This document shows, in pieces, positions 16,305-17,562 of a stretch of 64,000 nt of DNA; position 1 is the stretch's first letter; every line of letters begins with the position of its first letter. The stretch lies in the sequence record AF234173.1, one strand, 5' to 3'. A model generated the notes under the pieces. The model had not been told where the DNA came from, searched no databases, and was given only the letters and a program-made list of their open reading frames with translations. The position numbers and the translations under genes are program-made. The DNA comes from Escherichia phage P1.

Positions 16305-17117
16305 CTATTTTAATTCTATGTAGTTTTTAAATTCTCCCTCATATTTATACATGATGCTATCAAATCCTTCCATTACATCAACGAATTGTTGTGAACATTC
16401 CGGCTTCCAAGGCGTACACTTACGAACCATATCCATTTTATTCTTATCCTTCGTTGTATCGACTAAGGATAGGTACCCTATAAAATTCATCATCTGAACA
16501 GGATCTTGATTTGTGAATATATATTTGACGTTTTGCTTAGTAGGTGAAAAAGAATCAAAAGCAGGGAACATATATTCACCAGAAAAAGAGAGTGCAGCAT
16601 CAATGACGTCTGTTGCTGGAGTGCAGTTGCTCAGAATTGGCACTAAGCTAAAATTAGCACCGGAGCACACTGCATATATATCATCCCCTTTTTTTAGTTT
16701 TAACAGAGAGTCTTGCTTTGAATCCAATATTTTCAATTTGATATAATTTAGTGGCGTTGCATTTTCCCCTGGAGTAAATAATTCTACAATTGGTTTATTA
16801 TTCACCATTCTTATGGATTTTATTTCACCATACACAATTGGAATTGTGTTCCATTTTTCCTGAGCAGCAAATTCATTATCTTTAAAATCATTAACCAACT
16901 CAGATGGCAAATGATAACCAAATTGATTGTTCATTGCTTTCGAAGCAAATCCAGACAAATAGAATGCCCTTACTAAATCATAATCTTTCTTTGAGGTAGA
17001 AAGCCAATCTGGCAATTTATTATCAGCTATCGCGCTTCCAGCAAAAATAGCACAACAAAATGTTATTACATTAAATAATTTCATTTTCCATTCACTCATT
17101 AATCGGTTTAAACTCAC
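16305..17117 (-). CDS. secreted protein (SimC-like superinfection-exclusion candidate)
   Basis: Signal peptide MKLFNVITFCCAIFAGSAIA after the internal Met (likely start ~17084); AT-rich; sits where sim lies in P1. Confidence 0.4.
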   Translation of the reverse strand: MSLNRLMSEWKMKLFNVITFCCAIFAGSAIADNKLPDWLSTSKKDYDLVRAFYLSGFASKAMNNQFGYHLPSELVNDFKDNEFAAQEKWNTIPIVYGEIKSIRMVNNKPIVELFTPGENATPLNYIKLKILDSKQDSLLKLKKGDDIYAVCSGANFSLVPILSNCTPATDVIDAALSFSGEYMFPAFDSFSPTKQNVKYIFTNQDPVQMMNFIGYLSLVDTTKDKNKMDMVRKCTPWKPECSQQFVDVMEGFDSIMYKYEGEFKNYIELK

Positions 17118-17427
17118 TAATTAATTCACCAAGACTATTTGGGTATGCTTTATAAATAACATACTCCGAAGAGCCATCTGAATATTGGTAAACCCCATAA
17201 CAGACCAGTTTATTTATTCCTTTCTGAATAGTTTTTTGATTATAAGAATCAACCACTGTTATTCCATATGACGATAATATTTCGTTATATTCTTCAATAA
17301 GAGCTTTTCTTGTTTCCACTGAATTGCAATCTACCTTCGAAAAGTCAACTTCATCAGCAAAAACATTAAATGTTAAAAAGGAAAGCACTAAAAACAAACG
17401 AATCAGCATAAATCCACTCCTACGCAT
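17092..17427 (-). CDS. small secreted protein (111 aa)
   Basis: Signal peptide MRRSGFMLIRLFLVLSFLTFNVFA; AT-rich. Confidence 0.4.
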   Translation of the reverse strand: MRRSGFMLIRLFLVLSFLTFNVFADEVDFSKVDCNSVETRKALIEEYNEILSSYGITVVDSYNQKTIQKGINKLVCYGVYQYSDGSSEYVIYKAYPNSLGELISEFKPINE

Positions 17428-17429
17428 GG

Positions 17430-17562
17430 ATTAATAGTCATTGATCGCAAAGGCGTAAACGTGCCCAAGGTATTTCGTATAATCGGTACAAATCTCCTTT
17501 ACGCTTGATGCTGCATTAACAGTCCCAGCCATAAATAATAACGGTAGTAATAGTTTTCTCAT
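17430..17562 (-). CDS. 43-aa secreted peptide
   Basis: Hand-translated: MRKLLLPLLFMAGTVNAASSVKEICTDYTKYLGHVYAFAINDY; below the ORF-track size cut-off. Confidence 0.3.

What the first reader, a model, noticed from the sequence alone, without database searches (positions are those of the whole stretch)
16305..17562. AT-rich operon of three signal-peptide proteins between structural genes and immI
Three consecutive minus-strand genes (about 259, 111 and 43 aa) each begin with a classical signal peptide, and the two larger genes overlap. The 43-aa gene is below the ORF-track cut-off. Position and secreted nature fit a sim-type superinfection-exclusion module, but the sequences give no recognisable domain, so the mechanism is open.
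Basis: partly seen in the sequence, partly recalled or inferred. Interest (0 to 1): 0.5.

Follow-up and report, generated by a model that had tools for sequence, protein, structure and literature searches.

The report
Phage P1 sim superinfection-exclusion operon
The three exported-protein genes are phage P1's own simA-simB-simC operon, a long-known module that stops a second P1 from getting its DNA into an already infected cell, so the finding is real but already described.

Summary
Window 16100-17900 is 100% identical to Escherichia phage P1 (AF234172/NC_005856). The three minus-strand genes are annotated there as simC, simB and simA ("superimmunity"), between the tail genes pmgC/tub/sit and the immI genes c4/icd/ant. 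In detail: three consecutive genes with Sec-type signal peptides lie in a 33.5% GC cassette between roughly 48% GC flanks. The "sim-type" guess is correct because this is sim itself, so it is already known.

Points added here:
- SimB is predicted to have a cystatin/NTF2-like fold. It stays paired with SimC in three different cassette contexts, and both genes are under purifying selection.
- P1 simA matches the first ~41 codons of a 179-215 aa exported protein that is intact in related elements, so it is probably a relic.
- The slot is a cassette-exchange site that always carries envelope proteins.

How SimC blocks DNA entry is still unknown. Its acidic charge favours a protein target over DNA. 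Interest is low.

The parts
16305..17099 (-). simC (= sim), the exclusion effector. The GenBank start at 17099 gives 264 aa. The likelier start, ATG 17084, gives 259 aa with a 20-aa signal peptide.
   Evidence: 100% identical to P1 simC. The 259-aa form is the representative of a cluster of 777 sequences. dN/dS is 0.18-0.34 against diverged copies.
17025..17084 (-). SimC Sec signal peptide, MKLFNVITFCCAIFAGSAIA|D
   Evidence: n/h/c regions and an AxA cleavage site. No lipobox is present.
16614..16907 (-). SimC OB-fold core (residues ~60-157 of the 259-aa form), with a conserved Cys140/Cys154 pair
16305..16613 (-). SimC C-terminal helical domain (residues ~158-259), with a conserved CxxxxxxC pair (Cys223/Cys230)
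   Evidence: Secondary structure of the AF2 model. Conserved only in the full-length relatives P0002, P0005, P0014 and L007. No fold match.
17092..17427 (-). simB, the conserved exported partner of SimC. The GenBank form is 111 aa. The SD-supported start, ATG 17409, gives 105 aa with an 18-aa signal peptide.
   Evidence: 100% identical to P1 simB. An AGGAG sits 8 nt before ATG 17409, and NCBI calls the protein as 105 aa. It precedes a simC-type gene in P1, L009 and L007. dN/dS is 0.18-0.23. The model has pLDDT 84.8 and a cystatin/NTF2-like fold.
17431..17589 (-). simA. The GenBank form is 52 aa. The SD-supported start, ATG 17562, gives 43 aa. It is probably the 5' relic of a 179-215 aa exported protein.
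   Evidence: 93% identical to residues 1-41 of the 215-aa protein of phage Ro157c2YLVW, 69% to the 179-aa protein of L007 and 62% to the 189-aa protein of JK004. The P1 TAA stop aligns with an in-frame GAA. The first 108 nt are identical and the last ~20 nt are degenerate.
16241..16270 (-). Intrinsic-terminator-like hairpin with a T-run after simC
   Evidence: AACGCCC-ATTAAA-GGGCGTT followed by TTATTGTTTT. The RNA fold keeps the hairpin, z = -2.2.
17627..17653 (-). Predicted sigma-70 promoter PsimA (a GenBank prediction, not verified here)
   Evidence: Annotation of AF234172 converted to window coordinates. My consensus scan did not recover it.
16148..17662 (.). Low-GC exchangeable cassette, bounded by conserved DNA at the late promoter LPsit (16127-16145) and the C1 operator Oc4 (17659-17675)
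   Evidence: The three-way DNA alignment of P1, Ro157c2 and P7 shows sharp breakpoints. GC is 0.335 against 0.48. PMC9603915 lists this as variable region 4 of P1-like phage-plasmids.

Best explanation
This is the simABC operon of bacteriophage P1, a prophage-expressed superinfection-exclusion module.

Shown here: the DNA is identical to P1. All three products carry Sec-type signal peptides and no further hydrophobic membrane-spanning segment, so they are predicted to be soluble periplasmic proteins.

From the literature: sim (= simC) confers exclusion of superinfecting P1 and is thought to prevent the incoming DNA from reaching the cytoplasm. The genes are dispensable for lytic growth.

Inferred here:
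- Mature SimC (about 27 kDa) is the effector. It is built from an N-terminal helix, a disulfide-containing OB-fold domain of the exported PF12869 type, and a C-terminal helical bundle. It most likely works by binding a protein, or possibly a glycan, in the periplasm. The target would be either a part of the incoming phage's ejection apparatus (tail-tube tip or the Sit tape-measure/transglycosylase) or a host envelope factor that the apparatus needs. Binding would prevent completion of the DNA conduit across the periplasm and inner membrane.
- SimB, a small acidic protein with a cystatin/NTF2-like fold that always travels with SimC, is its partner, acting as co-effector, chaperone or specificity factor.
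- SimA in P1 is a truncated remnant of a third, longer exported protein and probably contributes nothing, or only its promoter and leader.
- The whole unit is a horizontally exchanged low-GC cassette in a slot that holds other envelope-protein cassettes in sister phages.
For: Identity and position:
- 100% identity over 1801 nt, and over the 7.8-kb neighbourhood, to P1, with simC/simB/simA annotated.
- The original 1990 'sim region' record M34382 matches at 99.2%.
- C4 RNA and its targets lie just upstream.

Literature:
- Sim confers superinfection exclusion or blocks DNA injection (PMC9177967; PMC8546580; PMC2409434).
- The genes are non-essential by CRISPRi (PMC10695390).
- The sim region is a low-GC variable region of P1-like phage-plasmids (PMC9603915).

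Export: signal peptides are present and there are no later TM segments. Conserved Cys pairs fit an oxidising compartment.

SimC OB fold.

SimB-SimC linkage: the pair occurs in P1-type loci (19 of 19 informative IMG/VR contigs), in L009 and in the distant L007 (59% and 47% identity). Purifying selection acts on both genes.

SimA as a relic.

Protein rather than DNA as the target: mature SimC has pI 5.2, its OB core has net charge -1, and SimB has pI 4.5.
Against: - No experiment or computation here shows what SimC binds, so the target step is pure inference.
- The SimC model is only moderately confident (pLDDT 75.6, pTM 0.54, from 8 sequences), and its C-terminal domain has no fold match.
- SimC itself falls below the Pfam gathering score.
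- The simA stump ORF is intact (43 codons) in all P1-type loci examined, so a function as a small exported peptide is not excluded.
- My recollection, not verified with the tools, is that the exclusion phenotype was described mainly with multicopy sim clones. Its strength in a single-copy lysogen is unclear.
Confidence: 0.9

Rival explanations
1. SimC acts as a periplasmic nucleic-acid binder: its OB fold captures the leading end of the incoming phage DNA in the periplasm and stalls translocation.
For: After 3f1z (itself labelled 'putative nucleic acid-binding lipoprotein'), the closest structural neighbours are anticodon-binding, RPA, MCM10 and Stn1/Ten1 OB folds. Another PF12869-type protein, TcdC, is reported to bind G-quadruplex DNA (PMC3575817).
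Against: Mature SimC is acidic (pI 5.2) and its OB core has net charge -1. From general knowledge, DNA of contractile-tail phages is thought to cross the periplasm inside a protein conduit. OB folds also bind proteins and sugars. No conserved basic patch is evident in the 8-sequence alignment.
Confidence: 0.1
2. SimB, not SimC alone, carries the key activity. As a cystatin-like tight-binding inhibitor it would neutralise an enzyme of the incoming virion, for example the SLT transglycosylase domain of Sit, in the way T4 Sp inhibits the gp5 lysozyme. SimC would serve as scaffold or targeting subunit.
For: SimB has a cystatin/latexin-like fold, and its matches include periplasmic immunity and inhibitor proteins. 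SimB and SimC co-occur strictly. Sit, encoded nearby, carries an SLT domain.
Confidence: 0.12
3. The cassette's main natural role is not exclusion of P1. It would be a 'moron' that modifies the host envelope for another benefit, such as defence against unrelated phages or colicins, or host fitness. Exclusion of P1 would then be a by-product of overexpression.
For: The slot carries unrelated envelope-protein cassettes in sister phages: a lipoprotein with a weak TraT-like hit plus DUF5384 in P7, and a 215-aa plus a YfjT-like 158-aa pair in Ro157c2 and JK004. The cassette has low GC and is horizontally exchanged. The genes are non-essential.
Against: Published work attributes superinfection exclusion of P1 to sim. 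There is no hit to any PADLOC defence model. The cassette is found almost only on P1-like phage-plasmids: 138 of 141 plasmid records are non-mobilizable replicons of P1 size, and 131 of 132 places in E. coli genomes are on plasmids.
Confidence: 0.1
4. SimA is a functional small exported peptide (mature form about 26 aa) that is needed together with SimB and SimC, not a relic.
For: The 43-codon ORF, with a strong SD (GGTGAGG), is intact in all P1-type loci where it could be read. GenBank annotates a 'putative superimmunity accessory function'.
Against: It is co-linear with, and 62-93% identical to, the first 41-42 residues of intact 179-215 aa proteins. Its stop codon replaces an in-frame GAA, and its 3' end is degenerate. 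It shows radical substitutions (GH to WQ) while SimB is 98-100% conserved in most of the same contigs (93% in one). L009 has simB-simC without any stump upstream.
Confidence: 0.15

Closest known systems
Bacteriophage P1 sim / simABC (Devlin et al. 1982; Kliem & Dreiseikelmann 1989; Maillou & Dreiseikelmann 1990; Lobocka et al. 2004)
   Same: Identical sequence, gene order, neighbours and annotation. It is the same object.
   Different: Nothing differs in sequence. The only differences are interpretive. The SD-supported starts are shorter than the GenBank ones, simA is read here as a gene remnant, and fold assignments are added for SimC and SimB.
Exported OB-fold proteins of Pfam PF12869 (tRNA_anti-like), e.g. 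Klebsiella lipoprotein PDB 3f1z
   Different: SimC scores below the family's gathering threshold (19.1 against 23.5 bits). It has an SPase-I type signal rather than a lipobox, and adds a ~100-aa C-terminal helical domain that 3f1z lacks. The function of the family is itself unknown.
T4 Imm and Sp; P22 SieA (classical superinfection-exclusion proteins that block DNA entry)
   Same: They have the same biological outcome, a phage-encoded block acting in the envelope after adsorption and before DNA reaches the cytoplasm (function from the literature).
   Different: No sequence similarity was detected. From general knowledge, Imm and SieA are integral inner-membrane proteins, whereas SimC and SimB are predicted to be soluble periplasmic proteins with cleaved signal peptides.
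Lipoprotein-type exclusion factors (T5 Llp, phi80/N15 Cor, F-plasmid TraT)
   Same: They are exported envelope proteins encoded by a mobile element that prevent entry of related elements. The P7 cassette in the same slot does encode a lipoprotein with a weak TraT-like hit.
   Different: The Sim proteins have no lipobox cysteine at the cleavage site and no similarity to these families. From general knowledge, those factors act by masking outer-membrane receptors, that is at adsorption, whereas Sim is reported to act after adsorption.

Membership tests
P1 simABC superinfection-exclusion operon | Sequence identity to P1 simC, simB and simA | tested here: met
   100% over 1801 nt to AF234172 and NC_005856, with zero mismatches over 7801 nt. 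tblastn gives 100% for all three proteins.
P1 simABC superinfection-exclusion operon | Location between pmgC/LPsit and the C1 operator of c4-icd-ant (immI), transcribed divergently from immI | tested here: met
   Annotation of the P1 record. Rfam C4 and a1b1 hits at 17736-17941.
P1 simABC superinfection-exclusion operon | Sim made as a precursor with a cleavable N-terminal signal peptide | tested here: met
   The sequence features are met. Actual processing was shown experimentally by Maillou & Dreiseikelmann 1990; this is my recollection of that paper, whose text was not available here.
P1 simABC superinfection-exclusion operon | Exclusion phenotype: block after adsorption and before DNA reaches the cytoplasm | not testable with these tools
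   Rests on the literature as cited in PMC8546580, PMC9177967 and PMC2409434.
Pfam PF12869 tRNA_anti-like (exported OB fold) | HMM score at or above the gathering threshold (23.5 bits) | tested here: not met
   SimC scores 19.1 bits, E 0.001, over residues 62-154. However, 4 of 8 SimC-family members match, best E 2e-14.
Pfam PF12869 tRNA_anti-like (exported OB fold) | Five-stranded OB barrel superposable on a solved family member | tested here: met
Membrane-integral Sie proteins (T4 Imm, P22 SieA type) | Transmembrane helices beyond the N-terminus | tested here: not met
   No 19-aa window with mean Kyte-Doolittle hydropathy above 1.6 beyond residue 40 in any of the three proteins.
Lipoprotein exclusion factors (Llp, Cor, TraT) | Lipobox with an invariant Cys at +1 of the mature protein | tested here: not met
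   The predicted cleavage sites are AIA|D, VFA|D and VNA|A. The Cys10-Cys11 of SimC lie in the h-region without a [LVI][ASTVI][GAS]C context. There are no Pfam or PADLOC hits.
Known anti-phage defence systems (PADLOC-DB v2) | Match to any defence-protein HMM | tested here: not met
   Zero families at E up to 1 for all three proteins.
Cystatin / NTF2-like fold (SimB) | One long helix packed on a curved antiparallel sheet, with a significant structural match | tested here: inconclusive

The most novel reading that the evidence does not exclude
SimC and SimB form a soluble periplasmic two-protein trap. An OB-fold effector plus a cystatin-like partner would bind and disable a specific component of the incoming P1 ejection machinery, for example the Sit tape-measure/transglycosylase, as it crosses the periplasm. 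The ancestral system would have been a three-protein set that included the full-length 179-215 aa 'SimA-long' protein, which P1 has lost. This would be a mechanistically new class of superinfection exclusion, distinct from the membrane-integral Imm/SieA types and the lipoprotein Llp/Cor types. It would also give a first function to the exported PF12869 OB-fold family.
Probability: 0.25. Interest if true: 0.5.

Novelty: already known. Interest (0 to 1): 0.12.

Why it matters
As a discovery it does not matter much. The operon was named in 1982-1990 and is annotated in every P1 record.

Its remaining value is that the molecular mechanism of Sim has apparently never been worked out, even though P1 is a workhorse for transduction and phagemid delivery, and P1-like phage-plasmids spread resistance genes. 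The cassette is in 141 PLSDB plasmids and in 129 of 5426 complete E. coli genomes.

This analysis gives concrete handles for solving the mechanism:
- an OB-fold plus helical-bundle effector;
- an obligately linked cystatin-like partner;
- a likely vestigial simA;
- natural diverged alleles (L007, L009) for specificity swaps.

It also shows that the LPsit-Oc4 slot is a general docking site for envelope-acting cassettes.

Tried and rejected
Searches that gave no significant hit:
- Pfam, NCBIfam and PADLOC scans of the three proteins gave nothing above the curated thresholds. The TcpS, Ecm33, eut_hyp and fadh2 hits are noise, at E above 0.001 or far below cut-off.
- PHROGs placed all three only in 'unknown function' families.
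- A sequence search of PDB chains found nothing (E above 1).

Searches limited by how small the family is:
- The word-indexed search of 5.8 billion proteins found only 4 SimC clusters.
- The exhaustive HMMER search of 1.84 billion representatives found 15, so deep alignments were not possible.
- The profile scan of GTDB genome contigs failed because the alignment has no sufficiently conserved 7-10 residue block.
- The viral-contig scan returned only near-identical P1-type copies.

Resources that were not available:
- The afdb50 fold library was not on the machine.
- The P1 genome paper (Lobocka 2004) and the 1982-1990 Virology papers are not held. Details of the original experiments are therefore from memory or from secondary citations.

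Weak or rejected leads:
- The consensus promoter scan was no better than shuffles (6 found against 7.3 expected), so I do not claim any promoter beyond the GenBank predictions.
- I considered a plus-strand or antisense gene. The plus-strand ORFs of 48-77 aa in the AT-rich DNA have no support, and Rfam finds nothing inside the operon.
- I considered direct DNA binding by SimC and down-weighted it on charge.

Full report
**1. What is there**

Listing the ORFs of window 14500-19500 shows three consecutive minus-strand ORFs:
- 16305-17117, with possible ATG starts at 17099 (264 aa) and 17084 (259 aa);
- 17092-17427 (111 aa, or 105 aa from the internal ATG at 17409);
- 17431-17589 (52 aa, or 43 aa from the internal ATG at 17562).

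The composition profile and a direct count show a low-GC block. The cassette 16148-17662 has GC 0.335, against 0.483 and 0.476 in the flanking 3 kb.

Each product starts with a basic n-region, an uncharged hydrophobic core and an AxA-type site...SAIA|DNKLP...NVFA|DEVD and ...TVNA|ASSV. None has a later hydrophobic segment. Under a crude Sec-signal rule only 6 of 107 long ORFs in the whole window score as exported, two of them being these neighbours. So the pattern is not chance.

A terminator-like hairpin with a T-run follows the last gene at 16270-16241.

One detail of the finding is internally inconsistent. The 259-aa reading does not overlap the 111-aa gene, from which it is separated by a 7-nt spacer. 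The 8-nt overlap exists only with the 264-aa GenBank start.

**2. What it is**

Megablast of 16100-17900 against phage records gives 100% identity over the full length to Escherichia phage P1 (AF234172, NC_005856, OP279344). It gives 99.2% to M34382, "Bacteriophage P1 sim region". The 7.8-kb neighbourhood is identical base for base.

In the P1 record the genes are annotated as follows:
- simC: "superimmunity"
- simB: "putative superimmunity accessory function"
- simA: "putative superimmunity accessory function"

On one side lie the late promoter LPsit and pmgC/tub/pmgB/sit. On the other lie the C1 operator Oc4 and c4/icd/ant1/ant2/kilA/repL. Rfam independently finds the C4 antisense RNA and its a1b1 targets at 17736-17941.

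**3. What is known about it**

Papers in the library state that:
- superinfection exclusion in P1 is conferred by sim (PMC9177967);
- simC is "the superinfection exclusion gene" (PMC2409434).

All three cite Devlin et al. 1982, Kliem & Dreiseikelmann 1989 or Maillou & Dreiseikelmann 1990. A CRISPRi screen scored simA, simB and simC as non-essential for plaque formation (PMC10695390). A comparative study lists simABC as one of eight low-GC variable regions of P1-like phage-plasmids (PMC9603915).

From memory, since the original papers are not held:
- adsorption is normal and transfection with P1 DNA is unaffected in sim+ cells;
- Sim is made as a precursor and loses a 20-residue signal peptide.

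The 20-residue figure matches the MKLF...SAIA|D prediction for the 259-aa form. I found no paper giving a molecular target or a structure.

**4. Added analysis: SimC**

SimC has very few relatives. There are 4 clusters among 5.8 billion proteins and 15 hits among 1.84 billion representatives. Full-length relatives are P0002 (84%), P0005 (39%) and P0014 (about 26%). Residues ~60-157 also match small exported proteins, P0012 (121 aa) and P0015 (154 aa).

That same stretch gives a sub-threshold Pfam hit to PF12869, tRNA_anti-like (19.1 bits against a cut-off of 23.5). Four of the eight family members match that family, the best at E = 2e-14.

An AlphaFold2 model built from the 8-sequence alignment has pLDDT 75.6 and pTM 0.54. 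It shows:
- the signal helix;
- a long helix at 32-54;
- a five-strand barrel at 83-156 with the OB-typical helix between strands 3 and 4;
- a C-terminal helical bundle at 158-257.

Two Cys pairs are conserved in the alignment, C140/C154 in the barrel and C223/C230 in the bundle. This fits a periplasmic protein. Mature SimC is acidic (pI 5.2, OB core net -1), which argues against DNA as its ligand.

**5. Added analysis: SimB**

SimB relatives are also few. NCBI calls the protein as 105 aa, consistent with the AGGAG 8 nt before ATG 17409.

The stronger evidence is linkage:
- simB directly precedes simC in every P1-type contig where the upstream region is present (19 IMG/VR contigs);
- it does so in the Logan contig L009 (92% and 84% identity);
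- it does so in a distant P1-like element, L007, whose pair is only 59% and 47% identical and whose PmgC is 78% identical.

dN/dS is 0.18-0.23 for simB and 0.18-0.34 for simC. Phage D6 carries a SimB-like domain fused to an unrelated C-terminal extension at another genome position.

**6. Added analysis: SimA**

The 43-aa SimA is:
- 93% identical to residues 1-41 of a 215-aa exported protein that occupies the same slot in the P1-like phage vB_EcoM-Ro157c2YLVW;
- 62% identical to the start of a 189-aa protein in Cronobacter phage JK004;
- 69% identical to the start of a 179-aa protein in L007.

In L007 that full-length gene sits immediately upstream of the SimB-like and SimC-like genes, which is the same order as in P1.

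The DNA alignment shows that P1 and Ro157c2 are collinear from the c4 side, through the promoter region, the SD and the first 108 nt of the gene. There is then a short degenerate stretch in which P1's TAA stop aligns with an in-frame GAA. Similarity is lost a few bases after the annotated simB ATG (about 17415-17423).

Among the IMG/VR P1-type contigs the stump stays open, but it shows radical substitutions (GH to WQ, P to S), while SimB is 98-100% identical in all but one of them (93%). L009 has simB-simC with no stump upstream and an intact 215-aa gene downstream.

The simplest reading is that P1 simA is the 5' remnant of a longer gene. Its promoter and leader now serve simB-simC. A function as a small peptide is not excluded.

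**7. The slot**

P1, Ro157c2 and P7 are identical up to about 16147 on the LPsit side. On the Oc4 side they are identical from about 17663. Between those points the contents differ:

| Element | Cassette contents |
|---|---|
| P1 | simA stump, simB, simC |
| Ro157c2 | 215-aa exported protein plus 158-aa YfjT-like exported protein |
| JK004 | 189-aa exported protein plus 158-aa YfjT-like exported protein |
| P7 | lipoprotein with a weak TraT-like hit, plus a DUF5384 exported protein |
| L009 | 2-TM protein, simB, simC, then the 215-aa/158-aa pair |

Every cassette encodes envelope proteins. The sim version is common: 141 PLSDB plasmids, 138 of them non-mobilizable replicons of P1 size, and 129 of 5426 complete E. 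coli genomes, with 131 of 132 places on plasmids.

**8. Mechanism**

Shown or from the literature:
- The proteins are predicted to be exported.
- Sim confers exclusion that is thought to act before the DNA reaches the cytoplasm.

Inferred:
- SimC is a soluble periplasmic effector whose OB domain binds a protein or glycan partner. The partner would be either a component of the incoming ejection apparatus, such as Sit, which carries an SLT transglycosylase domain, or a host factor.
- SimB is its obligate partner.
- SimA is vestigial.

Rivals (DNA trap, SimB as the inhibitor of a virion enzyme, a non-exclusion moron function, a functional SimA peptide) are listed separately with tests.

**9. Comparison and verdict**

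Membership in "P1 simABC" is met on every testable criterion. SimC is best described as a diverged relative of the exported PF12869 OB-fold family: the fold criterion is met and the HMM threshold is not. It is not a member of the membrane-integral Sie proteins, since it has no TM segments. It is not a member of the lipoprotein exclusion factors, since it has no lipobox. It is not a member of any PADLOC defence family.

The finding is real and correctly interpreted, but already known. The modest additions are the domain and fold assignments, the SimB-SimC linkage, the relic status of simA and better start codons. Interest is low.

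Noticed in passing
window 17589, 17427 and 17099 versus 17562, 17409 and 17084: The GenBank start codons of simA, simB and simC have no Shine-Dalgarno sequence. The internal ATGs are preceded by GGTGAGG (simA) and AGGAG (simB), or give a canonical MK- n-region with a 20-aa signal peptide (simC). NCBI's pipeline and the large protein clusters use 105 aa for SimB and 259 aa for SimC.
   Followed up: partly
L003 (phage P7) 2653-3717, the same slot as window 16148-17662: In place of sim, P7 carries an outer-membrane lipoprotein (Upf50.5) with a sub-threshold TraT (surface-exclusion) Pfam hit and a glycine-zipper motif. It also carries an exported coiled-coil DUF5384 protein (Upf50.0). 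This may be a different exclusion cassette.
   Followed up: partly
L004 2501-3676 (Ro157c2YLVW), L005 2501-3550 (JK004), L009 1921-3109: A conserved pair of signal-peptide proteins occupies the sim slot in other P1-like phages: one of 189-215 aa, the full-length version of simA, and one of 158 aa, which is YfjT-like by precomputed Pfam. Their function is unknown.
   Followed up: partly
L007 2108-3238: In a distant P1-like element, an IS605-family TnpB (OrfB_IS605/Cas12f-like) gene is inserted between the icd/ant side and the sim-like operon.
   Followed up: no
L006 2348-3244 (phage D6 orf79): A 298-aa protein carries a SimB-like domain (52% identity, residues 52-137) fused to an unrelated C-terminal part of about 160 aa. 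It lies near mat, not in the sim slot, and no SimC-like gene is next to it.
   Followed up: no
L009 209-532: A 107-aa predicted two-TM protein sits upstream of simB where P1 has the simA stump. In this contig simB-simC and the intact 215-aa/158-aa pair are present in tandem.
   Followed up: no
window 17431-17562 compared with L010-L029: The simA stump is polymorphic among natural P1-like contigs (YLGHVY to YLWQVY, and P7S in the signal peptide). SimB in most of the same contigs is 98-100% identical (93% in one), which suggests relaxed constraint on simA.
   Followed up: partly
window 17722-18102 (minus strand) and 17989-18232 (plus strand): Long mechanical ORFs of 126 aa (minus strand) and 73-78 aa (plus strand) overlap the c4 RNA and icd region. 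The 126-aa minus-strand ORF has no annotation and is probably spurious.
   Followed up: no
window ~16789 and ~17425 (P1 nt 47270 and 47906): PMC2409434 reports high-scoring ArgR-box-like sequences inside simC and at the simA/simB junction. They have not been tested. The second coincides with the recombination junction inferred here.
   Followed up: no
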